A stretch of DNA of 36,276 nucleotides from Phycisphaerae bacterium (GCA_029259995.1 JAJDEC010000342.1:1-36276), one strand, 5' to 3'. Numbered from the stretch's first letter, positions 9,393-33,954 are shown. Numbers and translations are program-made. The notes: generated by a model from the sequence alone, not told the origin.

Positions 9393-10586
9393 ATGCCGAG
9401 TTTTACCTACGTTGCAAGAGACATCCAGGGACAGACTGTATCGGGCGTTCTGGCCGCGGATTCGCAACAACAGGCGTTGCGGGCGCTGGATGAGCAGGCG
9501 TTGTTTCCGGTCGAAGTCCGCGAAGGCGGCAAGGCGGGGACGGGCGAGCGGAAGAAGAAAGTCCGGGCCACGGGCATCGCCGTCTTTTATTCTCAGTTTT
9601 CTGACTTATTGCGTGCCGGCGTGCCGGCGTTGCGATCGCTGGACGTTCTTTACAAGCAAACGCATAACGCCGTTCTGAAAGAGGTTCTGAAAGAGGTTCG
9701 AGAGGATCTCGCCAGCGGTCAAACGCTGGCGGACGCCATGGACAAGCATCACAACGCGTTCAGTCCGCTGCATGTGTCGATGGTGCGCGCAGGTGAAAAG
9801 GGCGGATTCCTCGAAGAGGTGCTGGCAAGAATTGCAATTTTCACGGAACGACAGAACGAGCTTCGAAACAAGGTTTACGGTTCGATGCTGTATCCGGCTG
9901 TGCTCATGCTCGTCGGCGTCGGAATCCTTGTGTTTCTGTTGACTGTCGTCGTGCCGAAGGTGCGTGGTTTTCTTCAAGGGGATTTGCCCGTTTTGACGCA
10001 GATCGTCTTTGCGGCGTGCGATTTCCTGAAGGAGCATGGCTTCTGGGCATTGGGTGGCCTGCTTGTGGCGGTGGCCGTGTTTATCGGTTTTTTCCGCAGT
10101 CCGGCAGGGAGAAACTATCTGGACCGGATTCAGCTCAAAGCGCCGCTCGTGGGCAACATATTCGTGCTTGTCGCGATTTGCCGTTTCTGCAGAATTCTGG
10201 GTACTTTGCTGAAGAATGGCGTTCCGATCCTGCAATCGCTGAAAATAGCGAGGGACTCTGCGGGCAATCAGGTCCTGGCGGAGATTATTGAGGATGCGAC
10301 GGAGAGCGTCCGGAAGGGCGCATCGTTGTCGAAGCCCCTGGGGCAGAGCAATTTGTTTCCGCTAGACATCGTTGACATGATTGCGATTGGCGAAGAAAGC
10401 AATAATCTCGAAAATGTCCTCGTGACGATTGCGGATTCCTACGAAGCGAGAACTTCGCGGAAAATCGAGCTGGCGATCAGAATGCTCGAACCGCTGCTGT
10501 TGGTTGGAATGGCCGGCGTCGTGGCGATCATTGCCGTGGCGCTGCTGTTGCCGATCCTGACGATGAGTGCAGGCGGCATCAAATAA
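9393..10586 (+). CDS. gspF: Type II secretion / type IV pilus inner-membrane platform protein (GspF/PilC family)
   Basis: MPSFTYVARDIQGQTVSGVLAADSQQQALRALDEQALFPVEV is the classic GspF/PilC N-terminus. The T2SSF domain is duplicated (LRAGVPALRSL... and LKNGVPILQSL...) and there are 3 TM segments. The track ORF starts at GTG 9375; the ATG at 9393 fits family N-termini better. Confidence 0.9.
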   Translation: MPSFTYVARDIQGQTVSGVLAADSQQQALRALDEQALFPVEVREGGKAGTGERKKKVRATGIAVFYSQFSDLLRAGVPALRSLDVLYKQTHNAVLKEVLKEVREDLASGQTLADAMDKHHNAFSPLHVSMVRAGEKGGFLEEVLARIAIFTERQNELRNKVYGSMLYPAVLMLVGVGILVFLLTVVVPKVRGFLQGDLPVLTQIVFAACDFLKEHGFWALGGLLVAVAVFIGFFRSPAGRNYLDRIQLKAPLVGNIFVLVAICRFCRILGTLLKNGVPILQSLKIARDSAGNQVLAEIIEDATESVRKGASLSKPLGQSNLFPLDIVDMIAIGEESNNLENVLVTIADSYEARTSRKIELAIRMLEPLLLVGMAGVVAIIAVALLLPILTMSAGGIK

Positions 10587-10677
10587 TGACATAACAAAGA
10601 ATTGGTATCGAGTCGATTGCTGTTCTCGGCTGAATGGGGCCGCAGAGGCGATCGACGTAGCAATCAGGAGATCAGTC

Positions 10678-11133
10678 ATGGTGACCAAGAAAAAAATGCG
10701 ACGAAACGTCCGAAGCCGGAAGGGCTTTACGCTGCTTGAGATTCTGCTCGTCGTGGGCCTGCTGGCGTTGCTCGCCGCCTTCGCCATTCCGGCATTGGTC
10801 GGTCAAGGTGAACAGGCGAAGAAAGACATCGCACGGGCGGCGATCGGACCGAACGGAAGTCTTTCCCAGGCGATCGACTTGTACAAGTTCAACACGGGGC
10901 AGTTTCCGGAGGAACTCAAGGACCTGATGGAAAAGCCCAGCGATGACGACATCGCCGAGAAGTGGACGGGTCCGTATCTGAAGGACGAACAGGGGCTCAA
11001 GGATCCCTGGGGCAAGGTGTTCGTGTATCAGTACCCGGGCGATCACAACGAAGGCAAGTACGACCTTTACAGCCTCGGCCCCAACGGCATTGACGGCGAT
11101 GAGGACGACATCAATAACTGGAAGGACAACTAG
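10678..11133 (+). CDS. gspG: Major pseudopilin GspG
   Basis: AGGAG lies 7 nt upstream of the ATG. The prepilin leader is MVTKKKMRRNVRSRKG|FTLLEILLVVGLLALLA, with Glu at +5. The core reads IDLYKFNTGQFPEEL...GPYL...DPWG..FVYQYPG. The C-terminal Ca-binding-type loop is YSLGPNGIDGDEDDINNW. Confidence 0.9.
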   Translation: MVTKKKMRRNVRSRKGFTLLEILLVVGLLALLAAFAIPALVGQGEQAKKDIARAAIGPNGSLSQAIDLYKFNTGQFPEELKDLMEKPSDDDIAEKWTGPYLKDEQGLKDPWGKVFVYQYPGDHNEGKYDLYSLGPNGIDGDEDDINNWKDN

Positions 11134-11268
11134 TCCGCGCCAGGCGTCGAGCCTCGTGCTCGCTGCGCGACGCATTGGCGTTTCGTGCCCGGAAAACCCA
11201 TGAACGCATCACATCGGATCATCGAATCTCGCTTGCTTCGTCGTGGCCACGCCCGTGGCGACGTACGG

Positions 11269-12387
11269 ATGGCGAATCGGCGCGCGTTCACGCTGATCGA
11301 GATTCTGATTGTCCTGGGCATGCTTGTGCTTCTGGCCGGTATCACGTGGCCCGTGCTCGAGACGCAGATCATTGGCTCGGAACTGCCGGAGTCGGCGTCG
11401 CGCGTGCGTGATGTATTATACATGGCCCGCGCAGAAGCCGCGAAAGAGAATCGGCGGGTCCGCGTGCGATTTGCGCCGGGCGCGCAGCAGCCGATCATCG
11501 AGATCGAGCGCGATCCGATTCGTGACTACAACGTCTGGACCCCCGTCACGTCGGCGTGGGCGGAGCAGGCGATGGAGTCGTTGCTGCTTTCCGACGTGCA
11601 GGTGCACGAGATCAAGCTCGGTCGTCCCGAATTCACGAAGCCGATTTCGATCAGCGAGAGTCCGGAAGAGGAAAAGGACGAGGGCGAAACACTCAAGGAC
11701 GAGGAAGTCGGGGCGCTCGACACGGAAGAGGCGTTTGACGATCTGGATCCGTCGAACCCTGACAACAATATTGTTGATGCGGATTATCCGGTCGACGACT
11801 ATCGCGCCGCGATCCTCTTTGATGCGCACGGCAAAGTGACGTGGGCTCTGATCACGCTGGCTCGGCGGTTGCCCGAAGATGCGCTGGAAGAGGAGGATCC
11901 GTCCTCCTGGGTCCTGCTCGACGGGCGAACCGGGATCGCGTCAGTCCGATCGCCGATGGACGAGGACGAACTCGCGGATCCGGCGAACTACATCAAGCGC
12001 GAAAACCTCTACCTGCCGGAACTGAGCGATCTGGGCCGGCTGTCCCTGAAATCGACCGGCTTCGGCGGTCAGCCTGCCGTTGACGATGATGGGGACGGCA
12101 TTCCGGATAATGTCCCCGGCGGCGATTCCGGCGAATTGGATGGGGGTTCGGGCGACCCGATGCAATCGGGCGACAATCCGGGCGACTCTTCGGGATCGAA
12201 TTCTCCGCCCCCGTCCCAATCGGATATCGACGACAAGCTCGACGAGTCCGGTCTCAGCGAGGCCGAGCAGAACAACATCCGAAATGCCCTGGGCGGCGGC
12301 CGTGGCAATCAATCCACGGGCGGCAATCGCGGCGGCGGTCGCAACGGCGGCCAGAAGCGTGACAATTCCGGCGGTGGCCGCAAGTAA
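11269..12387 (+). CDS. Minor pseudopilin, GspH-like, with long acidic then Gly/Arg-rich C-terminal extension
   Basis: MANRRA|FTLIEILIVLGMLVLLAG is a prepilin-type N-terminus with Ala at -1, followed by SASRVRDVLYMARAEAAKENRRVRVRF (a GspH-like helix/strand). The last ~120 aa are low complexity (DDDGDG...GGGRGNQSTGGNRGGGRNGG). Alternative starts are ATG 11200 and GTG 11185. Confidence 0.7.
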   Translation: MANRRAFTLIEILIVLGMLVLLAGITWPVLETQIIGSELPESASRVRDVLYMARAEAAKENRRVRVRFAPGAQQPIIEIERDPIRDYNVWTPVTSAWAEQAMESLLLSDVQVHEIKLGRPEFTKPISISESPEEEKDEGETLKDEEVGALDTEEAFDDLDPSNPDNNIVDADYPVDDYRAAILFDAHGKVTWALITLARRLPEDALEEEDPSSWVLLDGRTGIASVRSPMDEDELADPANYIKRENLYLPELSDLGRLSLKSTGFGGQPAVDDDGDGIPDNVPGGDSGELDGGSGDPMQSGDNPGDSSGSNSPPPSQSDIDDKLDESGLSEAEQNNIRNALGGGRGNQSTGGNRGGGRNGGQKRDNSGGGRK

Positions 12388-12608
12388 TCTCCGCATTCCT
12401 GAATCCGTTCGTCTCTCAGCTCTAACTTCTATTGCTGCAATATGTTACGGCAGTTGATGCGGTTGCGGCGATCCCATGCCAATGCTGAAACCTTGATGGA
12501 TGACGCTGCGTGGAGCGATCCGTGCGTTCGGGCGTCCAAAATCCGGGCGGCGGGACTCCCGGAAATTGCGACGAATGCCGCTATTCGGCGTACAAGGAGG
12601 CATCTGGC

Positions 12609-13496
12609 GTGAAGGTCGACCGGCACAATGGGGTGTCGAAACGGGGGTGGTCTAACGTGGCTCACCAGTTCTTCAACTCGGGTTCCTTCGCTCGTTCGAT
12701 GAGTCGAGCGCGGCGGTCGGGCTGCGCGAAAGTCGCGCGCCCGATACGACGCGGGGCGGCCTTGCTGGAAGTCATCCTGTCGCTCTCCCTGTTGCTGGTC
12801 GCGATGGTTGCCGTCGGCGTCGTCTTTCGGAACGGGCAGTATTTCGTCGAGAAGGCCGAGTTGCGCACCCGCGCGATGCTGCTGACGGAGAAGATCATTA
12901 CTGTTCTTGATACGGGCATGGACGAGGATCGCGACGGCGAGATGGACATCGACATCACGGAGCGTGAGCAATTCGGATACTTCGTCGTTGATGGCGCCGA
13001 CGTCGGTATTCCTGGCATGAGCTGGATGACGGAGATCGAACCGTCGCGGACGGTCGAGGGGTTGTACGAAATTGATATCAACATCTTCCTGGGCGATCCG
13101 GAGGATGAGGAGACGCGGCGGAATATTCTGCGAACGCGCATTGTTCGGGCTGAGCCGCGCGGGTTCGACTTCGAGCGCGACTTGGGGCTCGATGAAGATC
13201 AGATCGAAGAACTCACGAATGCCTTGCCTGACGGAGTCGGTCCACTTCTTGACCCGACGAATTTCGATCCGCGAATGCTTGCCCAGTTGCCGGCCGATCA
13301 GTTGATCGAGTTGTTACCGACGCTGATGCAGGCGTTCGGGAGTCAGTTGGGCGCCGGGCAGGTTGACCAGTTGATGAACATGGTCAATTCCGGCAATGCG
13401 CAGAACGTCGTCAATCAGGCCACGGGCGGAGCGAGCGGCGGTCAGTCGCCGTTGACGCCCGTCGTCTCCCAGCCGGGCCAAAAGAGGGATCAATGA
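12609..13496 (+). CDS. Minor pseudopilin, GspI-like, expanded
   Basis: The prepilin-like motif is PIRRG|AALLEVILSLSLLLVAMVAV, with Glu at +5. The best Shine-Dalgarno in the window (AAGGAGG, 12594-12600) lies 8 nt upstream of GTG 12609. ATG 12699 would give a shorter, more conventional leader. The stop overlaps the next start (ATGA). Confidence 0.6.
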   Translation: MKVDRHNGVSKRGWSNVAHQFFNSGSFARSMSRARRSGCAKVARPIRRGAALLEVILSLSLLLVAMVAVGVVFRNGQYFVEKAELRTRAMLLTEKIITVLDTGMDEDRDGEMDIDITEREQFGYFVVDGADVGIPGMSWMTEIEPSRTVEGLYEIDINIFLGDPEDEETRRNILRTRIVRAEPRGFDFERDLGLDEDQIEELTNALPDGVGPLLDPTNFDPRMLAQLPADQLIELLPTLMQAFGSQLGAGQVDQLMNMVNSGNAQNVVNQATGGASGGQSPLTPVVSQPGQKRDQ

Positions 13497-14371
13497 TGGC
13501 AGCTCCCATGAGGAAACTCAATGTGCGCCGCCAAGGCTTCACGCTGGTGGAAGTCGTCCTCGCGCTGGGGCTCGTCGTCATCATCGGGGCGATGATGTTC
13601 TCATTTTACGACCTGACATTGCGCACGCGCGAGCAGGGCCGCGTCGCCGTTAAGTCGGGGATTCTCGCGCAGCGTGTCGCGTATCAGATTGCCGAAGAGG
13701 TTCGGGCCTGCAACGGATTCCTGACGAGTATGGGGCCGGGCATTTCGGGGACAGATCGATTTCTCAGCATTCAATGCGTTCGATTTCCCGGCAAGCATGT
13801 GTTTCAGCGTCGTTCGATCACGGATGAGCAGCCGCCGGCAGAGTGCGACATCCGCCAGGTGCAGTATTACCTGGCTTACGATCTCGAAGAGGAATTCGAT
13901 CCGCATATGTATGCGAACGGCGTCGAGGGACCGAAGCCGCTCGGATTGGTTCGTCGGGAAGTCAAGACGCCGTTCCAACTGGCGTTCATCGATCGTGACG
14001 AGAAATCGGTTGCGTTGGATATCGTTTCCGAAGAGTTGAAGTACGTTCGATTCAGGTATTTCGACGGTGTCGACTGGGCGGACTATTGGGATGTCGGCGA
14101 GGGTTCGCCCGGCGGAAACTCCCTGCCGCAGGCCGTGGAAATCACGGTCGGATACACGGAACTCGCGCCGCCTGAAGAAGAGGAAGAGGCAGAGGATGAG
14201 GAAGACGAGGCGGAATTCGGCGATTCCAATCTGACGCCCGCACTGCCCGAACCTTATGCGGCTGAGACATATACAGTCACGGTTCGACTGCATCAGGCGG
14301 ATACATTCTTCGGCTCGCGCCTCATGCGGGCGCAGCAGAGCACGGGCGGTGGTGCAGGAGGCGGCATATGA
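13493..14371 (+). CDS. Minor pseudopilin, GspJ-like
   Basis: The N-terminus is MMAAPMRKLNVRRQG|FTLVEVVLALGLVVIIGAMMF, with Glu at +5. A beta-rich body contains a poly-acidic insert PPEEEEEAEDEEDEAEF. GAGGGA lies upstream, and both ends have ATGA overlaps with their neighbours. Confidence 0.7.
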   Translation: MMAAPMRKLNVRRQGFTLVEVVLALGLVVIIGAMMFSFYDLTLRTREQGRVAVKSGILAQRVAYQIAEEVRACNGFLTSMGPGISGTDRFLSIQCVRFPGKHVFQRRSITDEQPPAECDIRQVQYYLAYDLEEEFDPHMYANGVEGPKPLGLVRREVKTPFQLAFIDRDEKSVALDIVSEELKYVRFRYFDGVDWADYWDVGEGSPGGNSLPQAVEITVGYTELAPPEEEEEAEDEEDEAEFGDSNLTPALPEPYAAETYTVTVRLHQADTFFGSRLMRAQQSTGGGAGGGI

Positions 14372-19336: not shown

Positions 19337-19467
19337 GTGCCGCAATCGTGCGGTGCGAATCTGGTATCAGTTCCCGTCCACTCGGGACGGGATTCAAAAG
19401 CAGCGGGCGACGTCGTCGGGGGCGTACTGGACGAGTCGCACGCGTTTGCGAAAGGACACAACGAATC

Positions 19468-28400: not shown

Positions 28401-31400
28401 CGGCACGATGGTTGCCGCATCGATGCCTGTCTTCCTGATGAACGTCGCAATCTCGACCGGCTTTGCACAGTCGGATGCACCGAAGAAGGATGATCGTGAG
28501 CCGCCGCGTTCGATGCGGATTCGACCCCAGCAGCGCGACGACAAGAAGTCGGATACGAACAATGAACCACGGGCGCGAAAGACGGTTGCGTCGGGCCAGC
28601 CTGCGGCGCGAGGGACTCAGCCGCAGCCCGCGGGGAGGGATCCGCGAGATCCGAACGCGGCGACGTCCAATGCGGAGCGACTGATTCGTGAACGCGCCGC
28701 AGCTTCCAGCGGACCGCGGATGTCGGACGAAGTGCTGGAGCAGTTGAGCCGGCGACTGTCAGGCACGGATATCAACGTGATCGAAGCGCCGGACGGCAGC
28801 CTGATTCTGGAAGGCCTGGAGCAGGACGTCGATATCGTCGCCGGCATCATCGAGATGGTCGACCAGCAGACGCCGCTCAAGCAGATTGAGATCGTCATGC
28901 TCAAGAACCAGTTGGCCGAGCCGCTGGCGCAGAAGCTGACAACGGTCTTCAAGACGTTGGAGCCGCCGAATCCGCGACCGATCGACAAGGTGGATTTTCT
29001 GGCGGACCAGCGGACGAACAGCATCTTCATCGCGGCCGCACCTTCGAACATGCAGCGAGCCATCGATCTGGCGCGCATGGCGGACCAACCCTCGAATATA
29101 TCGCGACAGACGAAGTCCTTCGTCTTTCAGAATCGTCGCGTGATGGAAGTCGGTGAGACGATCAAGAAGATTGCGGCGAACTATCTGCGACAGTTGCAGT
29201 TGCCGACGGATCAGATTCAGATCGAGATCGACTCGTTCACGAACCAAGTGATTGTTTCCGCGGGCGAGCAGGACCTGGAATTTGTCGAGACGATCGTCAA
29301 GACGCTCGACATGAGCATCGACGATGCGGAAGCCGCGGATAAGATGAGCGAGATTGGCAAGGCCGACGTCATGGTCGTCCCGCTCCGCATTTCGCAGGCC
29401 CCCACGCTCGCCATCCTGATCAACGAGTTGCTGACGAAGGCCGCGACGGGCGACACGCCGTTGAAGGATTTCATCCGGCGCTTTCGCCTGCTCGACGAGA
29501 ATGGTAATCCCATCGCCGACGTGAATCTGGATCGACCCATCGCCGTGTTCGGCGAGCCGGAGTCGAATTCGCTGATCATTGCGAGCACCAAGGAGAATTG
29601 TCTCGTCGTGAAGCAGATTGCGATGGCTTTCGACAAGGAACCCAGCAAGGCGGCGGTCACGTCACGCGTCTTCACGCTGGCGTATGCGGATGCGACGGAA
29701 GTCGCGACGCAGCTCGATGCACTGCTGACGTCAACGGAGCAGATTACATCGAAGGCCAGCGGCGGCGGCGGTGCGGCCGGCGTGCCCGATGGACCGATCG
29801 GCGCGTTGGTCTACAAGGCCGTTGTGTCGGCGGACGCGCGAACAAACCAGGTCGTCGTCATCGGCCGACCGGAGGCCGTCGAAGCGATGGCGGGGCTCGT
29901 CGAAAAGCTCGACGTCAAGGGTCAGGGCGTGATGCCGTTTGAGATCGTGAAGCTGAATCACGCGAACGCGTCGGGCCTCGCAACGGCGCTGACGGACCTG
30001 ATGGACAAGCGCAAGTTAGCGATGCCGGCGGGCGGCGAGAATTCCGTGAAGAGTGAGACAGTCGTCATCGTGCCCGACGAGCGTTCCGTATCGCTGATCA
30101 TCGCGGCGAAGCGCGAGCGGATCGAGGAGTTGAAGGGCCTGATCGCGAAGCTGGACATACCGGCGACGGCGCTGATCGACAACATCCGCACGCTGACGCT
30201 CAAGAACAGCACGGCGACGGACCTGGCGGCCAAGCTCCAGGATCTGTGGTCGCAGAGCGAGGCGAATCGCGATTCCGCGCAGGGCGGTCTGACGTTCGAG
30301 ACGCCGGCAATCGTTGCCGATGAGCGCAGCAATTCGCTGATCATCGCGGCGAGCGAGAGCGACTTTGATGCGATCAAGTCTGTCGTCGAAAAGATCGAGA
30401 ATCTCGAACTGAACCCGATGTCGGATATTTACATCGTTCGGCTCAAGCACAATTCGGCGGCCGAACTGAAGGGACCGCTGCAGACAATGTTCGACAAGCG
30501 GGCCGAAATGCGATCGCTCCAGGAGCCGCGGCCGGAGGACAAAGTGTCCATCGAGTCGGATCCCGTGAACAACGCGCTGATTTTCGTGGCGTCGCGCGAG
30601 AATCACGAGTTGTTGATGCAGAAGATTGCGGATCTGGATCAGCCGATCGGTGCGATTCCCGTTGTCGAATTCTTCAAATGCGAGAATGTGTACGCAGATA
30701 CGGTCAAGGAAGCGATCGAGAATTTCGTCGAGAATGCTTTCCGCCCCGGTACCGGTGGCGACAGCAGCGTTCTGACGGAGCGGAACAAAGTTGCCGTTGT
30801 AGTCGACAGCCGGGCCAACATGCTGATCGTCTCGGCGAGCCCGGAGAACATGGAAGTCATCCGTCGAATCTACAGCGAGATGAACGACATCCGAAGTCCT
30901 TGGACGCCTGTCCACATTCAGATTGTCGAGTTGAAGAACACGGAAGCGAGTCAGCTTGCATCGAAAGTCGAGACGTGGCTTGAGCAGTTGAACACGGACG
31001 TGCAGTCGGGAACGAGCGGTGGTGGCGGTTCGCAGAACCAGTTCGCCGTGCGCGTCATTGCCGACACGGTTCGCAACTGGCTCTTCGTCGGCGGCACGCG
31101 CGACGGCGTTCGCCAGGCGATGGACTTCATCGCCAAGTACGATCAACCGATCGATCCGAACGTGGGGCCGTTTGTCAGCGCCGAGGTATATCCGCTCAAC
31201 CAGGCGAAGGCGAGCCAGGTCGGCGAGATGCTTCGCAACATCTTCGACGCACGAAATAATCAGTCAGGGACGGGCGATGCGGCGATGCAGCCGATTCCCG
31301 TGACTGTCGAAATCAACGAGCCCGGGAATTCGCTGTTGATTAATGCGTCGCGGCAGGATCATCTCATGGTCACGGGATTGCTGGCCCGGCTTGATGTGCC

Positions 31401-33954
31401 ATCCGAGATCCCGCGGATGTTCAAGGTTTATCCGCTCTCCAAGGCGTCGGCGACTGTCGTCAAGGAGACGCTGGATCAGATTTACCAGTCGAGCAGCACA
31501 CAGGGCGGCGGCGCTCAGGGCATCGTGACGGTTGCGGAAGAGCGGACCAATTCCGTCGTCGTGGCCGTGCCTCCGGGCGAACTTGCCAATGTTCAAAAGC
31601 TGATTACGCAGCTCGACCAGATCGAGATCACGGAGATTGCCGAAGTCGAAGTCATCCAGTGTGAGAACGAAGACGCCAACAAGATGGCGGAGCTCCTCAC
31701 GGAGATCATGACCGGCCAGTCGGCACAGGGCGGCGCCGGCAGCGCGGCCGATGCGGAATCCGCGCGGCAGCTCAGCTCACTGCTGGTCCAGTTCGAGGCC
31801 AAGGACCAATACGGCCAGCGCGACATTCTCCAGACGGTTCGCGAGAACGTGCAGATCAGCTACAACGAACGCTCGAACAGTGTCATCGTCGTCGCGCCGC
31901 CGTCGTCGATGCGATTGATCAAGAAGCTGGTGCAGAAGCTGGATGGCATTCAGAAGCGCGAAGTTCGCGTGAAAGTGTTCCCGCTCGTCAACTCCGACGC
32001 CGCGATCATGGTCGAGAAGCTCGAATCCATGTTCGCCCAGGACGACAGCGCGTCCGATCAGGAAGCCTTCCAGCAAGGTCGTGAAATCACAGTCGAAGGC
32101 GGCGCCAGCGACGTCGCTTCGGGGCCGGAATTCGCAGGGGCGGCCAATTCGCGGAAGGGCACGTTCGGCCGACCGCGAACGACATTCGTCGCTGATGAGC
32201 GAACCAACTCCATCATCGTTGCCGGCTGGCCGGAAGACATCGACGTCGCCGCCGACATTATCGATGCGTTGGACTCGCGTGACATTCAGGAACGCATCAC
32301 GACGGTCTATCCGCTCGTCAACATGAAGGCCGACGAAGTGCAGGGATCGCTCGATTCGTATTTCCAGGCCCAGCGAGACGCACAGAGCTCCGTCGAAGGT
32401 CAGGCCCAGGCGAGATTGCTCGAGAAAGACGTGACAGTCGTGTCTCACGAGGAGTCGAATCAACTCATCGTTTCTTCCAGCCCGCGCTATCAATCGGAAG
32501 TGTTACGGATCATTCAGCAGCTCGACGCACCGCCGCCGCAGGTCATGATCGAAGTCATGATCGCGGAAGTCACGCTCGACGACAGTTTCGAAATGGGCAT
32601 GGAGTTCGCGTTGCAGCAGCTCAAATTCAGCGAGACGGCCGTCGCCGGCGGCAACGGCATTCTTCAGAGCAACTCGTTCGACTTTGTCGGAGGTACGGAC
32701 CTCGGCGCTGCGGGTGCGGGATTGGGCGGCTTCAGCTTCACGATCACGGGCGAGGATTTCAACTTCCTTGTGCGGGCGCTTCAGTCCGACAGCCGACTGG
32801 ATGTGATTCAGCGGCCGATGATCATGTGCCAGAACAATCAAACCGCCTCGATCAACATCGGTCAGCAAGTGCCCTTCGTTCGGGGCACGACTGTGTCGGA
32901 CAACGGCCAGACGACGGCCAACATCGAATATGAACCGGTCGGCGTCATCCTGAACGTCGAACCGATTATTAATCCGGATGGCTTCGTCTACATGCTGATC
33001 GAACCGGAAGTCTCGTCGATCACGGATTCCAGCATTCCGCTGGGTAACGGCATTTTCGCTCCGATCATTTCAGAGCAGAAGGCCAGCACGACGGTCGCCG
33101 TCAAGGATGGCGAGACAGTCGTCATCGGCGGATTGATCACGACGCGGGAAACGGAATCGGAGAGCAAAGTGCCCGTACTCGGCGACATGCCGGGGATCGG
33201 CAATCTCTTCCGCACGACGTCGCGCCGCAACACGCGTTCAGAACTGCTCATTGCGATGACGCCGACGATTATCCGATCCGTCGAAGATGCACGGCGCACG
33301 AGCGAATTTCAGCGTGATCTCGGCGGATATCTGACGCCGGAAGTCAAGGGCAGCCCGCTGATGCGGAATCTGCAGGTTGAACCGGAGTCGTATAGCGAGA
33401 TCGATTCGATCGAAAGCGATCCGGGAACGATGCAGCCGCGCGTGTTGCCGAGCGGCAAGCCGCAGATCATCCCGACGCAGCCGCAGCGCGGGCCGAGCTA
33501 TGTCCCCGCGGCGCCGCGATACGGTCCTGTCGTCCCGCAATCGACGTCGGGAACGGCGAATGTGATGGTGCGGAACGGCGCGGCAGTGTCGCCAGGCGCC
33601 TCGCAGGCGTCCTATCAGCGGCCCGTCTCATCGCAACGCATCGGTACGATGCAGCCGGCGCTACCGACAGTTGACCAGGTGCGCAGCGGCGCGGCGCCGC
33701 TGGGACGTCCGAATCAGGATTTGCGTCCCGGGATGCCGCAGGGTAATCCGCAGACCTATGCCAATCGACCTGCCGTTGCTTCGTCGCCGGTTCGAACGTA
33801 CATGCGATTGCCGGAATTCTCGGCGGACGAGGAAGCCGCACGGCCGATCGTGAAGATCAGCACGCATCCGTCGAAGCGAAGTACGTCGGAAAAGGAAGCG
33901 CTGCGCCGTCAGGCTGCCGTGAAGAAATCGAACCGGAGCGACACGCATCGATGA
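19468..33954 (+). CDS. gspD: Giant secretin (GspD/PilQ family), ~4,828 aa, with ~40 N-domain repeats and one C-terminal secretin beta-barrel domain
   Basis: The frame is uninterrupted to TGA at 33952-33954. ATG 19468 gives a Sec-type signal peptide, MLSEMMNKRVFGRMASLVMVLTLLSLAFGASRLIAAP. The track start at 19318 adds 50 Arg-rich residues and overlaps the upstream gene. The C-terminal region carries secretin hallmarks (see domain features). Confidence 0.9.
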   Translation: MLSEMMNKRVFGRMASLVMVLTLLSLAFGASRLIAAPYGVLEEPKPTESKDKDKEKDDAPKDEDADEDKESSDDKKDADSKDDASKDEKKDEKKEDLDKERERVAEESEAEKQKALDNLSKTPGGQDMSAAEKAEMEAQLEALKQAAIKSVGKTPPPAPKKTTIKPQATKPAINMDSAKKPGTTFEDTEAGKRIRRKIGPRGGLPKVTDAAANDETPASKKNTKGNRRNLIDTSKENPEVDPNSNAEDVGEPKTAEQKRQEAIEKAQQRAKDRRADLESKRRDKMNAILDRGKNDRDDKKPSSTKRPRVGKRGRSKVDVDVEDAADDDDSSVQSPIGEIPAVFIDIKMAPAADREFSINYEETPWMDVVADFARMSRLPFVRNLDDEIEGTLTYFSTEKFSYDGAFHKLNELLFDRPLNNLVIQRLNDRITVVRIPDLLKAVPKDRIFGSFAEFRAANLDPYVACQTQYVPPVGFTPFQIIERYRPLFSDTYGVKISDPDRLELTGFAKEHIYFDEMVRHLTNIENPDEIDKYVTIQLNYAKANDVLTILRQLYPIQGAAAPPAKRGGRRGRRQPQANAIAPDLEDADAVNIITEAKANILYIKAPDYLMKELRSRIAELDVPTESRPEMELVELTYADASTVVSQVLPILQSIGPRITKSPDFVAPKEQAKFDVTLFPSANGNGIVIVGGREGIEFVRQLVLNQFDVPPDWITKSIGLQHRDASYIVERLNEAMPSSGGGPTAVRRGKKGGPAIVATVDQPPSITIVSSRSLFVSASRFDLAMIEDLVQKLDVVDPEEPSEHFVYVRCATPSEIAETVQQIMAEDSTPKVAQPIAAKNAKARAAARQRAARASRGRSVQSGGDGPMIIPNDADQSLLVYCSDPDWIEVQRLIDRLESNACDVEPQWVQIKLERAEPTDIATYINQMFPAPGGSAQSVTADSFNKTINIYATPMFIEKVRPLIEKIDYTSTGELTIIKLMWAKAEIIAPIIQQAVPESQYVSPTARINAATAKTRRGKTPPKAAQNRVVQSAGDTKVRIVAEPVTNSLLVTAPPEKLRTIENLVSQMEAVAESQRPEKVIVNVINRKADEIAGVLSSILNATQGAGGKEGAAGGSVNPTDVELSITAIGDQLILFGPQNEVAEAIQLVTQIDTLDAMPITRKVRVYDAEEDEKKLRSMLALKADTAISVNQAPQKGGRRAPNRRAPTKPTAKLTDTGATVSDVQIYANPYENTLLIRAMPKDWKLIEEILDVIRDDAPPIPGSEDYESMFIVNLKHKSAWDISYDLEDVINIEGRRPVTFKEGPRDKDLIVMNFRPSQRPEIEKWIEIYDVPKDGGKYGSGYVSIDVKGGMSALDAARLLKARAGSEFPIEIAEIGSGSAVQTIDIHAGEEEEEAASTEGKRTDRGADGRPISALPSHMLPLWLRDVVCAAAIGQSESETEKDDGAPLGGHLESILNPPTDRVQILTDPDTGKLILLGPEEEVQRLRDILEELMGDEKTEPVMRIFPLKYAPVSEVAAKLNEIFNSPAQRTVNRGRGNRAQPQLPGQPTQAGKGDDKNAKGKQPVQQQAPATPARIKVIPNERTSSVVVVAPPKEIPLIVEVLRHLDSKRILDVNMRMFEMKNLDASQVVENLKEVLGIEDRALTRAPQRGRGAANQRAQQQVQIQGDDGDTLVSADKVKLTAESQTNTIIAQGPPDTLDLIEGIIKDLEDKTIKSDVEMMRIVLRKARASEIADIVQSLIDETINNQNATPAAAPQRGRGRGRTPAAASRRNENVSVHADPRTNSVILAGPGDQLEKAKAIVEELDNTEVGLVIRQIPVKGEATEIANTLRTLYNVGGRPGASPDVIITPLDATHTILIKAPEPLMVDIEEQLALIDAKFESSDKLRKIEMKFANAETVATQLSELFGTGRTSRGSTNRSAQISIRGYKSSGIIYVQAPDEEFERIKATAEDLDKVDTSVQVHRLQLNHAPAQQVLTKIQAMMGEAIRSGAMGNTNLDYVSMQADPRTNSLILVGGPTSALLLGQMLATIDVPQEGKNEQETKVYTLPPTINVADIVRNINELFRGISLTTHGVEPPVVTPNQGSNLIIVRANGKQHEQIERDVVNPVKAEGDKGVRKDNIYVVNNAKAVDLANVLTRHVRETMQQVNRQYPVNIVADEGTNQLIVNATDEDFNKIRPMIEALDQESGERRTEVFKVQYVSPWSMATIITQQFRGSSRNPNDQVNASFEDGTYSIIVTANDENMAKVRDLILKADVPSKETITEYVQLKHGQSDEMRTSIDAALRGRYPSDRRGQMPFNVTSQNLSNTLIVSAREDIMPEILDMISRLDIPGGGEHIRRVFKLTFSEPGSVSRMIQNLFRPTSGRPSPREQVKSSDDWATNSVIVSAVESKMLEVEQLINEMDQPGDSVRTERVINIENADPNDVASSIQQILQQATSGQRGRQAAVVRAVRGTTKIVAYANEKEYESIKSLVEQIDIEGGRIIHAVVIPDQVPARTIADNINNLFGRGRQGGDAPHAESHEPTNTVLVSATDAEFERIQAQLITPLSDSKASGIFSIHYIPVKNAIADEVAQTMQAFFDKKAGISSNRGFGRGGRGGGQSAEDRDNQVTITAEPNSNTLIVYCTEKTKKEIDDLLAVIDSADTTEKRVEMVALQYVDATTMIEILTEVLRVSRTSAKEPDDRPWWARDNDRDDDKDVVLAGDTRLKAITETNSVIVAGKSEAVEDALAKIAELDKPGDTGDTPVPIRLVNTNASTLAETLKQVFVENNRSGSGGRNGKSSGPELTIVPDQSSNTIYVRGKLSDVNKVVEQARQMDSEASGGESGIVVIPIPFGHDVTDLANMIESQINENEQNEKQKNRNYTPDLVKITPNARTNVLLVNASKSKLEDVKRVIEDMQQQMQFRGGPTRRVLKIENMTPEQAKELIEKVKEGQQSSGSSGNTRRSNRGGRRGDANWTHNRRFDDAKHSASPRRTKRAGTMVAASMPVFLMNVAISTGFAQSDAPKKDDREPPRSMRIRPQQRDDKKSDTNNEPRARKTVASGQPAARGTQPQPAGRDPRDPNAATSNAERLIRERAAASSGPRMSDEVLEQLSRRLSGTDINVIEAPDGSLILEGLEQDVDIVAGIIEMVDQQTPLKQIEIVMLKNQLAEPLAQKLTTVFKTLEPPNPRPIDKVDFLADQRTNSIFIAAAPSNMQRAIDLARMADQPSNISRQTKSFVFQNRRVMEVGETIKKIAANYLRQLQLPTDQIQIEIDSFTNQVIVSAGEQDLEFVETIVKTLDMSIDDAEAADKMSEIGKADVMVVPLRISQAPTLAILINELLTKAATGDTPLKDFIRRFRLLDENGNPIADVNLDRPIAVFGEPESNSLIIASTKENCLVVKQIAMAFDKEPSKAAVTSRVFTLAYADATEVATQLDALLTSTEQITSKASGGGGAAGVPDGPIGALVYKAVVSADARTNQVVVIGRPEAVEAMAGLVEKLDVKGQGVMPFEIVKLNHANASGLATALTDLMDKRKLAMPAGGENSVKSETVVIVPDERSVSLIIAAKRERIEELKGLIAKLDIPATALIDNIRTLTLKNSTATDLAAKLQDLWSQSEANRDSAQGGLTFETPAIVADERSNSLIIAASESDFDAIKSVVEKIENLELNPMSDIYIVRLKHNSAAELKGPLQTMFDKRAEMRSLQEPRPEDKVSIESDPVNNALIFVASRENHELLMQKIADLDQPIGAIPVVEFFKCENVYADTVKEAIENFVENAFRPGTGGDSSVLTERNKVAVVVDSRANMLIVSASPENMEVIRRIYSEMNDIRSPWTPVHIQIVELKNTEASQLASKVETWLEQLNTDVQSGTSGGGGSQNQFAVRVIADTVRNWLFVGGTRDGVRQAMDFIAKYDQPIDPNVGPFVSAEVYPLNQAKASQVGEMLRNIFDARNNQSGTGDAAMQPIPVTVEINEPGNSLLINASRQDHLMVTGLLARLDVPSEIPRMFKVYPLSKASATVVKETLDQIYQSSSTQGGGAQGIVTVAEERTNSVVVAVPPGELANVQKLITQLDQIEITEIAEVEVIQCENEDANKMAELLTEIMTGQSAQGGAGSAADAESARQLSSLLVQFEAKDQYGQRDILQTVRENVQISYNERSNSVIVVAPPSSMRLIKKLVQKLDGIQKREVRVKVFPLVNSDAAIMVEKLESMFAQDDSASDQEAFQQGREITVEGGASDVASGPEFAGAANSRKGTFGRPRTTFVADERTNSIIVAGWPEDIDVAADIIDALDSRDIQERITTVYPLVNMKADEVQGSLDSYFQAQRDAQSSVEGQAQARLLEKDVTVVSHEESNQLIVSSSPRYQSEVLRIIQQLDAPPPQVMIEVMIAEVTLDDSFEMGMEFALQQLKFSETAVAGGNGILQSNSFDFVGGTDLGAAGAGLGGFSFTITGEDFNFLVRALQSDSRLDVIQRPMIMCQNNQTASINIGQQVPFVRGTTVSDNGQTTANIEYEPVGVILNVEPIINPDGFVYMLIEPEVSSITDSSIPLGNGIFAPIISEQKASTTVAVKDGETVVIGGLITTRETESESKVPVLGDMPGIGNLFRTTSRRNTRSELLIAMTPTIIRSVEDARRTSEFQRDLGGYLTPEVKGSPLMRNLQVEPESYSEIDSIESDPGTMQPRVLPSGKPQIIPTQPQRGPSYVPAAPRYGPVVPQSTSGTANVMVRNGAAVSPGASQASYQRPVSSQRIGTMQPALPTVDQVRSGAAPLGRPNQDLRPGMPQGNPQTYANRPAVASSPVRTYMRLPEFSADEEAARPIVKISTHPSKRSTSEKEALRRQAAVKKSNRSDTHR
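19591..20460 (+). other. K/D/E-rich low-complexity region at the mature N-terminus of the secretin
   Basis: About 290 aa such as EEPKPTESKDKDKEKDDAPKDEDADEDKESSDDKKDADSKDD...KRRDKMNAILDRGKNDRDDKKPSS...DVEDAADDDDSS. The region has no hydrophobic core pattern. Confidence 0.8.
20533..20778 (+). other. N0-like (STN/TonB-plug-like) domain of the secretin
   Basis: FSINYEETPWMDVVADFARMSRLPFVRNLDDEIEGTLTYFSTEKFSYDGAFHKLNELLFDRPLNNLVIQRLNDRITVVRIPD matches the N0 pattern. That pattern is: first strand, helix with target-specific residues, G.vT.., a second helix, then a hairpin. Confidence 0.6.
21064..32526 (+). repeat. Array of ~40 protein-level tandem secretin-N (N1/N2/N3-type) domains, divergent at the DNA level
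   Basis: The unit recurs as: strand with (Y/F)xxA, a helix, a strand carrying [DE]x[RS][TS]N[STQ][LV][IL][IV]xA, a helix, then [LI][IV]xx[LI]D. Examples are ADPRTNSVILAGP (~24805), ADPRTNSLILVGG (~25482), ADERSNSLIIAAS (~30313), EERTNSVVVAVP (~31537) and ADERTNSIIVAGW (~32191). My manual count is 38-42. Linkers interrupt the array at ~23600-23830 and ~28250-28760. Confidence 0.8.
32527..33279 (+). other. Secretin C-terminal beta-barrel domain (PF00263-type)
   Basis: The domain runs PPPQVMIEVMIAEVTLDDSFEMGMEF...FNFLVRALQSDSRLDVIQRPMIMCQNNQTASINIGQQVPF...EYEPVGVILNVEPIINPDGFVYMLIEPEVSS...STTVAVKDGETVVIGGLI...SKVPVLGDMPGIGNLFRTTS...ELLIAMTPTIIRS. Confidence 0.92.
33280..33951 (+). other. P/Q/G-rich low-complexity C-terminal tail of the secretin (S-domain position)
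   Basis: About 224 aa follow the barrel, for example ...PQIIPTQPQRGPSYVPAAPRYGPVVPQS...RPGMPQGNPQTYANRPAVASSP.... The tail ends in the basic stretch KRSTSEKEALRRQAAVKKSNRSDTHR. Confidence 0.75.

What the first reader, a model, noticed from the sequence alone, without database searches (positions are those of the whole stretch)
9393..33954. Hybrid T2SS/T4P cluster with complete pseudopilin set but no ATPase or prepilin peptidase
Seen in the sequence: the gene order is gspF, gspG, H-like, I-like, J-like and K-like pseudopilins, then PilM-N, PilO(-P)-like and the secretin. The pseudopilin block is T2SS-like: GspG carries a Ca-loop and GspK lacks Glu+5. The alignment block follows the T4aP pilMNOPQ order. 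Stops and starts overlap at 13493 (ATGA), 14368 (ATGA), 16059 (TAATG) and 17774 (ATGA), which indicates translational coupling. gspF starts 283 nt after speA, so the usual gspE/pilB ATPase gene upstream of gspF is absent. No GspC, GspO/PilD or retraction ATPase is present either. The flanks are housekeeping genes with similar composition, so the cluster appears to be core genome rather than an island (inference).
Basis: partly seen in the sequence, partly recalled or inferred. Interest (0 to 1): 0.65.

Follow-up and report, generated by a model that had tools for sequence, protein, structure and literature searches.

The report
Secretion gene cluster with giant secretin
This is a conserved type II secretion-like gene cluster of Phycisphaerae (Planctomycetota) whose motor ATPase gene has moved elsewhere in the genome, and whose outer-membrane channel protein is 4,878 residues long with about 42 ring-forming domains, about seven times the six rings of Thermus PilQ, described in 2017 as one of the largest characterised.

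Summary
No GspE/PilB-type ATPase or prepilin peptidase lies in the 36 kb window.

The missing ATPase is most likely an operon break. In Planctomycetia and several Phycisphaerae, an orthologous gspE sits directly upstream of gspF. In the window's clade speA sits there instead. In two Phycisphaerales genomes the gspE orthologue is a lone gene among housekeeping genes.

The "hybrid" label is only partly right. The order F-G-H-I-J-K-[L position]-[M position]-D is that of the Xanthomonas Xps T2SS. F, G, K and the secretin score best as Gsp. Only the L-position protein is PilM-type.

The "secretin" is a 4,878-aa ORF with this layout:
- a signal peptide and a charged low-complexity region;
- a GspD-like N0-N1 module;
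- about 27 N-domains;
- a conserved internal signal-peptide-like segment;
- about 15 more N-domains;
- the secretin domain.

It is real. A 4,928-aa gene is called in a closed genome, a metagenome relative aligns colinearly at 68.5% identity, and 76 of the 150 best cluster representatives share the architecture. Planctomycetaceae encode the two halves as separate genes. A conserved lipoprotein follows the secretin. I found no description of this in the searchable literature.

The parts
9393..10586 (+). gspF-type inner-membrane platform protein (397 aa from ATG 9393)
   Evidence: Pfam T2SSF 9.5e-62. TIGR02120 GspF scores 373 bits against 291 for PilC. This exact product is called on a Logan contig.
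10678..11133 (+). gspG major pseudopilin (ORF opens at 10567; likely start ATG 10678 after an AGGAG)
   Evidence: T2SSG 1.1e-23. TIGR01710 scores 104 bits, above the 88.85 cutoff. PulG 5wda 2e-15. Prepilin motif KG|FTLLE.
11269..12387 (+). GspH-position minor pseudopilin with a long acidic/Gly-rich tail (ORF opens at 11185)
   Evidence: N_methyl 1.7e-4, GspH PF12019 E=0.009, TIGR01708 E=7e-4. Motif RRA|FTLIE. The assignment rests mainly on position.
12699..13496 (+). GspI-position minor pseudopilin (ORF opens at 12510; a 265-aa form matches the gene called in CP030884.1)
   Evidence: Only XpsI at E=0.002. Motif RRG|AALLE. Conserved at this position in relatives. The called gene is 265 aa in L088.
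13493..14371 (+). GspJ-position minor pseudopilin
   Evidence: T2SSJ 1.4e-4, N_methyl 1.4e-4. ATGA overlap with the upstream gene.
14368..16059 (+). GspK-type minor pseudopilin lacking Glu+5
   Evidence: T2SSK_1st 1.4e-12. NF037980 GspK 1.6e-20. N-terminus RRPA|FMLVV.
16059..17777 (+). PilM-type actin-like domain (aa 11-326), TM segment (about aa 351-375) and periplasmic domain, at the GspL position
   Evidence: PilM_2 1.9e-22. TIGR01175 1.5e-26 and Amuc_1101 family 7e-16. The profile hits PilM structures 3jc8, 5eou and 2ych at 1e-18 to 1e-23. It gives only a faint match to the GspL periplasmic domain (E=0.25).
17774..19336 (+). PilO/GspM-like bitopic protein (TM, coiled coil, alpha-beta-beta x2) with a beta-rich C-terminal extension of about 300 aa of unknown fold
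   Evidence: The family profile hits M. xanthus PilO 3jc8_Oa at E=0.01. Orthologues give Pfam PilO E=0.011 (L075) and T2SSM E=0.0017 (L047). The AF2 secondary structure of aa 1-170 fits this fold, with an overall pLDDT of 44.6.
19318..33954 (+). Giant secretin ORF, 4,878 aa (probable start ATG 19468 or 19480, just before the signal peptide)
   Evidence: Pfam Secretin_N x31 (7e-287) and Secretin 4.9e-50. My own HMM finds 41-42 N-domains. Orthologues: a 4,928-aa called gene in CP030884.1, L089 at 68.5% identity over 4,786 aa, and an ORF of at least 3,699 aa in L083. Logan contigs of run X1 tile the gene without indels.
19468..19578 (+). N-terminal Sec signal peptide of the secretin (MLSEMMNKRVFGRMASLVMVLTLLSLAFGASRLIAAP)
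   Evidence: Read. Hydropathy peak at aa 60-69. Conserved in L002 and L003.
19585..20487 (+). K/D/E-rich low-complexity region (aa 90-390)
   Evidence: Composition is K 16%, D 14%, E 11%.
20500..21117 (+). GspD-like N0-N1 module, the presumed docking site for the inner-membrane platform
   Evidence: Profile A2 against the PDB: GspD 5wq7_A 4.3e-10, and also 3ezj, 6hcg and 3oss. It heads the giant ORF in Phycisphaerae and heads the separate N-domain-only protein in Planctomycetaceae.
21079..28395 (+). First array of about 27 N (ring-building) domains, with one 180-aa insert at aa 1304-1483
   Evidence: Domain table. Mean pairwise identity is about 20%, and there are no DNA tandem repeats.
28384..28476 (+). 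Internal signal-peptide-like segment RRTKRAGT-MVAASMPVFLMNVAISTGFA|QSD (aa 3023-3053) at the joint of the two halves
   Evidence: Conserved in L083, L089 and six distant representatives, always about 1,700-1,850 aa from the C-terminus. The ORF is continuous here and an independent X1 contig spans it.
28654..32526 (+). Second array of about 15 N-domains, colinear with the stand-alone secretins of Planctomycetia
   Evidence: The L058 secretin aligns to window aa 3954-4456 at 29.6% identity over 504 aa.
32728..33291 (+). C-terminal secretin (outer-membrane beta-barrel) domain
   Evidence: PF00263 4.9e-50. TIGR02517 GspD scores 258 bits against 178 for PilQ.
33355..33951 (+). P/S/R/Q-rich C-terminal tail of about 200 aa
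   Evidence: Composition. It is not covered by hits, where query coverage is about 75%.
34073..34747 (+). Conserved lipoprotein directly after the secretin; candidate pilotin or accessory factor
   Evidence: Lipobox FMGG|C. Homologues with a lipobox lie in the same position in L089 (63%), L082 (38%) and L083 (36%). No Pfam hit. The structure model was too poor to classify.

Best explanation
**What it is.** The region encodes the conserved, vertically inherited core of a type II secretion-like (type IV filament superfamily) machine of Phycisphaerae. Its parts are:
- a GspF platform;
- a GspG major pseudopilin;
- H/I/J/K-type minor pseudopilins that prime the filament tip;
- a PilM-type cytoplasmic/bitopic protein at the GspL position;
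- a PilO/GspM-like partner;
- a giant secretin;
- probably a dedicated lipoprotein.

**How it is powered and processed (inferred).** The machine is driven in trans by an orthologous GspE ATPase that has been separated from the operon in this lineage. The pseudopilins are matured by a prepilin peptidase encoded elsewhere.

**How the secretin works (inferred).**
- Its C-terminal domain forms the gated outer-membrane pore.
- Its roughly 42 N-domains are of the ring-building type that stacks as rings under other secretins. Here they form a very long periplasmic conduit or tether.
- The far end of that conduit is a GspD-like N0-N1 module, which docks on the inner-membrane platform.
- Thermus PilQ has six rings in a complex 350 A long. 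On that scale the array could span on the order of 100-200 nm. That would fit the enlarged, variable periplasm of Planctomycetota.

**Origin of the giant chain.** It corresponds to two genes in Planctomycetaceae: an N0 plus N-domain-only protein, and a shorter secretin. A conserved signal-peptide-like segment marks the joint.

**Shown versus inferred.** Shown here are gene content, homology, domain counts, synteny, the position of gspE in relatives, and the fused and split forms. Inferred are trans-acting GspE and peptidase, ring stacking and length, protein secretion as the output, and the role of the lipoprotein.
For: - **T2SS-type identities.** GspG scores above the equivalog cutoff. GspF scores above PilC. 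GspK 1.6e-20. The secretin C domain scores 258 bits as GspD against 178 as PilQ. The N0-N1 profile hits GspD structures at 4e-10.
- **Gene order.** It equals xpsE, xpsF, xpsGHIJKLMCD.
- **Conserved order.** The order holds in the Phycisphaerae loci and, more diverged, in Planctomycetia among the 80 species-level loci.
- **gspE in relatives.** gspE lies directly upstream of gspF in Planctomycetia and eight Phycisphaerae loci. These GspE are mutually 50-84% identical, so they are one orthologous group.
- **Unlinked gspE.** Hundreds of 561-565-aa orthologues exist at about 70% identity. Two that I examined are lone genes among housekeeping genes.
- **The giant secretin is real and under length constraint.** It is a 4,928-aa gene in CP030884.1. 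L089 is colinear at 68.5% identity. The closest representatives keep 37-42 N-domains. Seventy-six of the 150 best cluster representatives have N0 plus the secretin domain, with a median of 4,332 aa and 38 N-domains.
- **Not a recent repeat expansion.** Repeats are about 20% identical to one another and there are no DNA repeats. An independent assembly tiles the gene.
- **Split form.**
- **Ring stacking as precedent.** Thermus PilQ has six rings, is 350 A long, and spans a wide periplasm (PMC5745081).
Against: - No GspE or peptidase was located in the window's own genome, because the genome is not available to these tools. I did not show that the two genomes with a lone gspE belong to the window's immediate clade.
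- No GspC/PilP-like domain was detected. The GspH and GspI assignments rest on position and weak scores.
- Nothing shows that the 42 N-domains stack as rings rather than forming a flexible string.
- An internal hydrophobic signal-like segment is topologically awkward in a single exported chain. The mature product or products are therefore unknown.
- No expression data could be found.
- Secretion versus pilus formation is not distinguished experimentally.
Confidence: 0.65

Rival explanations
1. One reading: a self-contained hybrid T2SS/T4P machine that works without a dedicated ATPase or peptidase, or a decaying remnant that has lost them.
For: No T2SSE motif or A24 peptidase lies in the 36-kb window, nor within 10 kb upstream of gspF in the window-clade loci.
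Against: - All nine genes are intact and conserved in order across classes.
- The 14.6-kb ORF is kept open in several lineages.
- The ancestral arrangement has gspE adjacent.
- Orthologous gspE persists unlinked in two Phycisphaerales genomes.
- No member of this superfamily is known to assemble filaments without a GspE/PilB-type ATPase (my knowledge).
Confidence: 0.05
2. The cluster builds a true extracellular type IV-like pilus or fibre for adhesion or polymer capture, rather than a periplasmic pseudopilus for protein secretion.
For: - A PilM-type protein, with weak similarity to the Akkermansia families Amuc_1101 and Amuc_1098, which NCBIfam names as pilus-complex proteins.
- A PilO-like partner.
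- Planctomycetes carry abundant fibres that emerge from envelope-spanning crateriform complexes (PMC5394234).
Against: - The major subunit passes the GspG equivalog threshold and is a short GspG-type pseudopilin with the PulG-like C-terminal loop.
- GspK, GspF and GspD score above their T4P counterparts.
- No PilT retraction ATPase and no AMIN-domain PilQ is present.
Confidence: 0.2
3. The 4,878-aa ORF is not used as one chain. It yields two proteins: an N0 plus N-domain-only protein of about 3,050 aa and a secretin of about 1,830 aa. This would happen by cleavage at, or internal initiation before, the conserved internal signal peptide, reproducing the two-gene state of Planctomycetaceae.
For: - The internal segment has a conserved n-region, h-region and AxA-like site in relatives as distant as 28-41% identity.
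- A Met sits at the start of the h-region in the window (ATG 28408).
- Planctomycetaceae encode the halves separately, each with its own signal peptide.
Against: - No Shine-Dalgarno-like motif precedes ATG 28408.
- Other subfamilies have uninterrupted arrays of 44-57 N-domains with no such joint.
- The frame is kept open across the joint in every fused orthologue I examined.
Confidence: 0.3
4. The giant ORF is an assembly artefact: collapsed or chimeric repeats, or two genes joined by an error.
For: The run that holds the window covers it at low depth, about 5x. Many database homologues are truncated at contig ends.
Against: - Repeats are only about 20% identical to one another and there are no DNA tandem repeats.
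- Independent Logan contigs tile the gene and span the joint without indels.
- A 4,928-aa gene is called in closed genome CP030884.1.
- L089 is colinear at 68.5% identity over 4,786 aa.
- Seventy-six of the 150 best cluster representatives share the architecture.
Confidence: 0.02

Closest known systems
Xps-type type II secretion system of Xanthomonas (xpsE, xpsF, xpsGHIJKLMCD)
   Same: - Same gene order from F through the pseudopilins G-K and two platform genes, with the secretin last (PMC11981180).
- GspF, GspG, GspK and the secretin C domain score best against Gsp/Xps models.
- The N0-N1 module matches GspD structures.
   Different: - No gspE in the locus.
- The L-position protein is PilM-family, not GspL-family.
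- No recognisable GspC (XpsC/N).
- The secretin is 4,878 aa with about 42 N-domains. Solved GspD chains are about 620-660 residues and have four such domains, N0-N3 (my knowledge).
- The H- and I-like pseudopilins carry long low-complexity tails.
Thermus thermophilus PilQ (T4P/DNA-uptake secretin with six stacked rings N0-N5)
   Same: It is an extended stack of N-domain rings under a secretin. The stack is interpreted as an adaptation to a wide periplasm. It was described as one of the largest characterised: 757 aa, six rings, 350 A (PMC5745081).
   Different: - The window protein has about seven times as many N-domains and six times the length.
- It belongs to a GspG/GspK-type cluster.
- It has an internal signal-like joint and a charged low-complexity N-terminal region.
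- No structure exists.
T4aP alignment subcomplex PilM-PilN-PilO-PilP-PilQ (Pseudomonas, Myxococcus)
   Same: PilM-family actin-like domain: 3jc8_Ma 2.7e-23, 5eou 3.7e-21. A weak PilO-like fold in the next protein. The secretin comes last.
   Different: - PilM and the PilN-equivalent are one polypeptide.
- No PilP, no AMIN domains, no PilA-type pilin and no PilB/PilT nearby.
- The pseudopilin block is Gsp-type.
Akkermansia muciniphila families Amuc_1098 (named type IV pilus outer membrane protein) and Amuc_1101 (named PilM-like pilus complex protein)
   Same: Low-scoring NCBIfam matches of the PilM-type protein to the Amuc_1101 family (7e-16) and of the secretin C-terminus to the Amuc_1098 family (2.6e-28). 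Akkermansia and Planctomycetota both belong to the PVC group of phyla (my knowledge).
   Different: Scores are far below the family cutoffs (58 against 650 bits; 98 against 750 bits). The Amuc_1098 model is 805 positions long, so it is not giant. The locus here has a Gsp-type pseudopilin set.
N-domain-only proteins of Planctomycetaceae, Pirellulales and Planctomicrobium (uncharacterised; loci L059, L064, L072, L074-L076, L079)
   Same: The same N0-like head followed by 6-26 Secretin_N repeats. They are encoded in the same gene cluster, next to gspE.
   Different: They are separate polypeptides of 1,224-2,299+ aa without a secretin domain. The shorter secretin is a second gene after the PilO-like gene.

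Membership tests
Type II secretion system (Gsp/Xps) | GspE-family assembly ATPase belonging to the system | tested here: not met
   No Walker A / Walker B / His-box T2SSE motif occurs in any frame of the window, nor within 10 kb upstream of gspF in window-clade loci. It is present directly upstream in Planctomycetia and eight Phycisphaerae loci, and unlinked in two Phycisphaerales genomes. The rest of this genome could not be searched.
Type II secretion system (Gsp/Xps) | GspF polytopic platform protein | tested here: met
   PF00482 9.5e-62. TIGR02120 1.7e-111 is the best of all F/PilC models, although its 373 bits fall below the equivalog cutoff of 424.
Type II secretion system (Gsp/Xps) | Major pseudopilin GspG with prepilin motif and C-terminal loop | tested here: met
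   TIGR01710 scores 104 bits, above the 88.85 cutoff. PulG 5wda 2e-15 with the loop aligned, although one acidic position is Asn. Motif KG|FTLLE.
Type II secretion system (Gsp/Xps) | Four minor pseudopilins H, I, J, K, with K lacking Glu+5 | tested here: met
   Four consecutive prepilin-type genes. K: T2SSK_1st 1.4e-12, NF037980 1.6e-20, and Val at +5. J: T2SSJ 1.4e-4. H and I have only weak hits (E about 1e-2 to 1e-3) plus their position.
Type II secretion system (Gsp/Xps) | GspL and GspM assembly-platform proteins | tested here: inconclusive
   - The L position holds a bitopic protein with an actin-like cytoplasmic domain, but that domain is PilM-family. No GspL cytoplasmic hit was found, and the GspL periplasmic domain scores only E=0.25.
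- The M-position protein gives weak PilO (E=0.01) and, in orthologues, GspM (E=0.0017) hits.
Type II secretion system (Gsp/Xps) | GspC linking the platform to secretin N0 | tested here: not met
   No GspC/PilP/PDZ hit in any ORF. The beta-rich C-terminal 300 aa of the 520-aa protein could play this role, but it could not be classified.
Type II secretion system (Gsp/Xps) | Secretin GspD with N0, N-domains and a C-terminal secretin domain | tested here: met
   PF00263 4.9e-50, and PF03958 x31 by Pfam or about 42 by my own HMM. The N0-N1 profile hits GspD structures at 4.3e-10. The domain number is far outside the known range.
Type II secretion system (Gsp/Xps) | Prepilin peptidase (GspO/PilD) | tested here: not met
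   No Peptidase_A24 hit in window ORFs. None appears in the precomputed Pfam lists of L084, L086-L088. No credible A24 motif in any locus. It may be encoded elsewhere.
Type II secretion system (Gsp/Xps) | Secretes folded periplasmic proteins across the outer membrane | not testable with these tools
   This needs secretome comparison of mutants.
Type IVa pilus (PilA, PilBTC, PilMNOPQ) | PilA-type major pilin, PilB/PilT ATPases, and PilQ with AMIN domains | tested here: not met
   The major subunit is GspG-type. There are no ATPases. No AMIN domain was found in the secretin.
Type IVa pilus (PilA, PilBTC, PilMNOPQ) | PilM actin-like protein | tested here: met
   PF11104 1.9e-22. TIGR01175 1.5e-26, at 93 bits below the 133 cutoff. 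PilM structures at 1e-18 to 1e-23.
Secretin superfamily | C-terminal secretin beta-barrel domain preceded by ring-building N-domains, with a Sec signal peptide | tested here: met
   Oligomerisation and outer-membrane insertion were not tested.
Akkermansia Amuc_1098 / Amuc_1101 families | Scores above the NCBIfam family cutoffs | tested here: not met
   58 bits against a 650 cutoff, and 98 bits against a 750 cutoff.

The most novel reading that the evidence does not exclude
The giant secretin, or in Planctomycetaceae the N-domain-only protein plus the shorter secretin, builds an oligomeric tube of stacked rings more than 100 nm long. This tube physically pins the outer membrane to the inner-membrane platform across the enlarged planctomycetal periplasm. 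On this reading it is the molecular basis, or a major part, of the still unassigned envelope-spanning 'press-stud' complexes (crateriform structures) from which fibres emerge. The internal signal peptide would make one gene deliver two stacked ring-forming proteins.
Probability: 0.15. Interest if true: 0.9.

Novelty: new variant of a known kind. Interest (0 to 1): 0.66.

Why it matters
**Scale.** Secretins are among the best-studied outer-membrane channels. The characterised ones have two to six periplasmic N-domain rings. Thermus PilQ, with six, was called one of the largest characterised (PMC5745081). A conserved and widespread family with about 21-57 such domains, at 4,000-5,500 aa per subunit, raises two questions. 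How does a filament-driven secretion machine work across a very wide periplasm? And how is such a subunit exported and assembled?

**Planctomycete biology.** Planctomycetota are major polysaccharide degraders with many exported enzymes, an enlarged periplasm, and unexplained envelope-spanning complexes (PMC5394234). This cluster is a concrete, genetically testable candidate for their main exoprotein or fibre machine. The split versus fused gene forms offer a natural experiment.

**Annotation.** The 'missing ATPase' should not be read as an ATPase-independent system. System-detection tools that demand co-localised gspE will miss these loci.

**Literature.** I found no paper describing the giant secretin in six full-text searches. 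Surveys of planctomycetal 'giant genes' that I read do not mention secretins.

Tried and rejected
- **Whole-secretin homology search.** The search for homologous proteins with all 4,878 aa timed out. I replaced it with the C-terminal 549 aa and an exhaustive search with aa 380-1500.
- **Exact-product look-ups.** The K-like and PilM-type proteins are not on record. Only GspF is, on a 4.7-kb Logan contig.
- **Extending secretin fragments on long contigs.** L082 (CP070685.1) is scaffolded with N-gaps and is probably misjoined after rpoB, so it is uninformative for length.
- **ATPases 3.5 kb upstream in L025 and L026.** I rejected these as the cognate ATPase. They are only 40-44% identical to the cluster GspE group and are paired with their own gspF paralogue.
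- **Locating gspE in the window's own organism.** No contig length is shared between the listed GspE hits and the GspF hits or loci, so no same-genome link was made.
- **Metagenome scan with the joint region.** It returned only one locus, L089.
- **RNA evidence for a single transcript.** No RNA runs were found. Promoter and terminator scans were at background level and are not suited to this phylum.
- **Structure prediction.** Single-sequence models of the 520-aa protein (pLDDT 44.6) and the lipoprotein (pLDDT 49) were poor. Foldseek on the lipoprotein model gave only insignificant Ig-like hits with TM about 0.2, which I disregarded.
- **Internal translation start at the joint.** No SD-like sequence was found, so this is left open.
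- **A24 peptidase motif hits.** The regex hits were spurious. The one 'GAGDAK' hit, in L050, lies in a non-membrane ORF.
- **Giant-gene literature.** Omnitrophota giant genes next to T2SS-like loci (bioRxiv 10.1101/2023.11.21.568195) are a different situation. There the giant protein is a neighbour or cargo, not the secretin.
Full report
**1.

ORF listing and translation, together with Pfam and NCBIfam scans, show the following genes on the + strand:
- gspF, 9393-10586: T2SSF 9.5e-62; GspF scores above PilC.
- gspG, likely start ATG 10678, to 11133: T2SSG 1e-23; TIGR01710 scores 104 bits, above its 88.85 cutoff.
- Three prepilin-type genes at the H, I and J positions. H and I have only weak family hits. 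J hits T2SSJ at 1.4e-4.
- A GspK-type gene, 14368-16059: T2SSK_1st 1.4e-12; GspK 1.6e-20.
- A 572-aa protein with a PilM domain, one TM segment and a periplasmic part, 16059-17777.
- A 520-aa bitopic protein, 17774-19336.
- One ORF from 19318 to 33954 that ends in a secretin domain.

The four stop/start overlaps and the 283-nt gap after speA are exact. The gaps between F, G, H and I are ordinary intergenic gaps. Glu+5 is present in G, H, I and J and absent in K. The C-terminal loop of GspG aligns with that of PulG and EpsG, with one Asp replaced by Asn. No T2SSE ATPase motif and no A24 peptidase lie anywhere in the window.

The flanks are rsmE, a DAP-decarboxylase-like gene, lptG/lptF and speA. 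Composition is even across the region.

**2. Where the window comes from, and how conserved the cluster is**

A scan of one genome per GTDB species with GspF returned 80 loci. The closest are Phycisphaerales and Phycisphaerae MAGs at 85-88% GspF identity, and they share the window's flanks.

The order gspF-G-H-I-J-K-PilM-type-PilO-like-secretin is kept throughout Phycisphaerae. In more diverged form it is also kept in Planctomycetia: Pirellulales, Planctomycetaceae, Gemmataceae and Planctomicrobium.

The window sequence itself is found in biofilm metagenome runs.

**3. The missing ATPase is an operon break**

- Six-frame motif scans find a GspE-type ATPase directly upstream of gspF in most Planctomycetia loci and in eight Phycisphaerae loci. 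None lies within 10 kb upstream in the window's clade, where speA (or speA plus nrfHA in CP030884.1) sits instead.
- The cluster-linked GspE proteins form one orthologous group. They are 50-56% identical between the two classes and 60-84% within Phycisphaerae. The ATPases 3.5 kb upstream in L025 and L026 are a different paralogue with its own gspF copy.
- Searching with the L047 GspE finds very many 561-565-aa orthologues at about 70% identity. In the two long Phycisphaerales records I examined (CP070744.1 and a 2.67-Mb contig), the gene stands alone between housekeeping genes, with no gspF nearby.
- I could not search the window's own genome. I also could not show that those two genomes belong to its immediate clade. 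'GspE acts in trans' is therefore an inference, though a strong one.
- No prepilin peptidase lies in the cluster in any relative.

**4. 'Hybrid T2SS/T4P' is only partly apt**

The order E, F, G-H-I-J-K-L-M-C-D with the secretin last is the Xanthomonas xps order (PMC11981180). The back half therefore does not point specifically to pilMNOPQ.

The L-position protein has the GspL architecture: an actin-like domain, a TM segment and a periplasmic domain. Its actin-like domain, however, is clearly PilM-family. A profile of 26 orthologues hits PilM structures at 1e-18 to 1e-23. It gives only a non-significant match (E=0.25) to the GspL periplasmic domain.

The 520-aa protein family gives several weak hits:
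- PilO in the PDB at E=0.01.
- Pfam PilO at E=0.011 in L075.
- Pfam GspM at E=0.0017 in L047.

A low-confidence model shows a TM helix, a coiled coil and an alpha-beta-beta x2 pattern. Its beta-rich C-terminal 300 aa are unclassified. That region is the only candidate for a GspC/PilP-like connector. Apart from the PilM-type domain and the PilO/GspM-like protein, the classifiable parts score best as Gsp.

**5. The secretin is the remarkable part**

The ORF encodes 4,878 aa. Pfam reports 31 Secretin_N stretches (7e-287). An HMM iterated on the protein itself finds 41-42. Its layout is:
- a signal peptide at about aa 51-87;
- a K/D/E-rich region, aa 90-390;
- a module at aa 395-600 whose family profile matches the N0-N1 domains of solved GspD structures (5wq7 at 4.3e-10, also 3ezj, 6hcg, 3oss);
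- about 27 N-domains;
- a 170-aa linker that holds a signal-peptide-like segment, RRTKRAGT-MVAASMPVFLMNVAISTGFA|QSD, at aa 3023-3053;
- about 15 further N-domains;
- the secretin domain at aa 4471-4658 (GspD scores above PilQ);
- a P/S/R/Q-rich tail.

The repeats are old. Mean pairwise identity is 20% and there are no DNA tandem repeats.

**6. The giant ORF is real and widespread**

- Closed genome CP030884.1 (GspF 80% identical) has the same cluster, with a called secretin gene of 4,928 aa.
- A metagenome contig (L089) has an open frame of at least 4,712 aa that is 68.5% identical and colinear over 4,786 aa.
- L083 has an open frame of at least 3,699 aa with 33 N-domains.
- Independent Logan contigs of run X1 tile the gene at even depth without indels. 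One contig spans the internal joint.
- An exhaustive profile-free search with aa 380-1500 against 1.84 billion cluster representatives gave 952 hits. Of the best 150, 76 have the N0-like head plus a secretin domain, at 2,561-5,532 aa (median 4,332) and 21-57 N-domains (median 38). Another 70 have the head but no secretin domain. Many of these are 2,200-3,500 aa and the shorter ones are probably fragments.
- The closest subfamily keeps 37-42 domains. This suggests that length itself is under selection.

**7. Fused and split forms**

In Planctomycetaceae, Pirellulales and Planctomicrobium, a separate protein made only of Secretin_N repeats lies next to gspE. These proteins are 1,224 to more than 2,299 aa, give 6-26 Pfam stretches, and have no secretin domain. 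They carry the N0-like head.

The gene after the PilO-like gene in those loci starts with its own signal peptide and ordinary N-domains. It aligns colinearly with the last 900 aa or so of the window protein.

The window protein therefore equals those two proteins in one frame. The internal signal-like segment sits at the joint. That segment is conserved in L083, L089 and six representatives at only 28-41% identity, always 1,700-1,850 aa from the C-terminus. Other subfamilies have uninterrupted arrays.

Three readings of the segment remain open. It may be a fusion relic, a processing site, or an internal start. No SD-like motif precedes the Met at 28408.

**8. One more component**

A predicted lipoprotein gene (34073-34747) follows the secretin, and it does so in three relatives as well. 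Identity falls to 36%, and each homologue has a lipobox. It has no Pfam family. I propose it as a pilotin-like accessory factor on synteny alone.

**9. The mechanism I consider most likely**

The cluster encodes a GspE-powered (in trans) pseudopilus machine of T2SS type. Its outer-membrane pore hangs on a very long stack or string of ring-building domains. The far end of that array, N0-N1, contacts the inner-membrane platform.

The only characterised precedent for 'more rings for a wider periplasm' is Thermus PilQ: six rings, 350 A, 'one of the largest' (PMC5745081). By simple proportion, 42 domains could reach 100-200 nm. Planctomycetes do have an enlarged periplasm. They also have unexplained complexes that pin the two membranes together and carry fibres (PMC5394234). 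Linking the two is speculation, and I give it about 15%.

**10. Novelty**

Six full-text searches found no description of a multi-N-domain giant secretin in Planctomycetota. The papers I read on planctomycetal secretion systems and giant genes do not describe one either.

Public databases already hold many of these proteins under automatic names such as 'secretin N-terminal domain-containing protein'. The sequences are therefore not new.

I rate this as a new variant of a known kind. The feature it did not mention is the one worth following.

Noticed in passing
window 28384-28476 (aa 3023-3053 of the secretin ORF): A conserved internal Sec-signal-like segment (basic n-region, h-region of about 18 aa, AxA-like site followed by Q) lies in the middle of a 4,878-aa exported protein. 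It is topologically awkward for a single chain. It is conserved in distant orthologues at the same distance from the C-terminus.
   Followed up: partly
window 34073-34747 (+): A predicted lipoprotein (lipobox FMGG|C) is conserved immediately after the giant secretin in L089, L082 and L083. It has no Pfam family. It is a candidate pilotin.
   Followed up: partly
window 11269-12387 and 12699-13496: The H-like and I-like pseudopilins carry long acidic, Gly- and Ser-rich low-complexity C-terminal extensions. The H-like one is about 250 aa. This is unusual for minor pseudopilins.
   Followed up: no
L064:1-6897, L075:1229-7777, L059:5081-8752(-): Planctomycetia encode very large proteins made only of Secretin_N repeats behind an N0-like head, with no secretin domain, next to gspE. 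As far as I could find, this protein type is undescribed.
   Followed up: partly
L025 about 5089-7119 and L026 5502-8531: A second, paralogous gspE-like ATPase plus gspF-like gene pair lies a few kb upstream of the cluster's gspF in two Phycisphaerae genomes. It could be mistaken for the cognate ATPase.
   Followed up: partly
L088 (CP030884.1) 7525-9712 and 15071-16836: In this closed genome, nrfH/nrfA-like cytochrome genes sit between speA and gspF. The K-like gene is called as two ORFs (431 + 157 aa), and the second ORF holds the T2SSK C-terminal domain.
   Followed up: no
window 379-1758 (-): A 459-aa highly acidic, Pro/Glu/Asp-rich protein with a C-terminal TM segment and no Pfam hit. It is conserved at about 40% in L002 and L003 at the same position.
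   Followed up: no
window 5022-6671 (-): The LptF-like permease is 549 aa. Its Pfam LptF_LptG match is split into two stretches, which implies a large periplasmic insertion relative to the 353-position model.
   Followed up: no
L082 (CP070685.1) 9901-10000: The 'chromosome' of this MAG joins rpoB to a secretin C-terminal fragment across a 100-N gap. This is far from its gspF locus (L045) and is probably a scaffolding error caused by the giant gene.
   Followed up: no
window 19000-34000: The secretin gene has a strongly positive AT skew (0.1-0.29) compared with about 0 in the flanks. This reflects its K/E/D/A/T-rich, repeat-domain composition.
   Followed up: no
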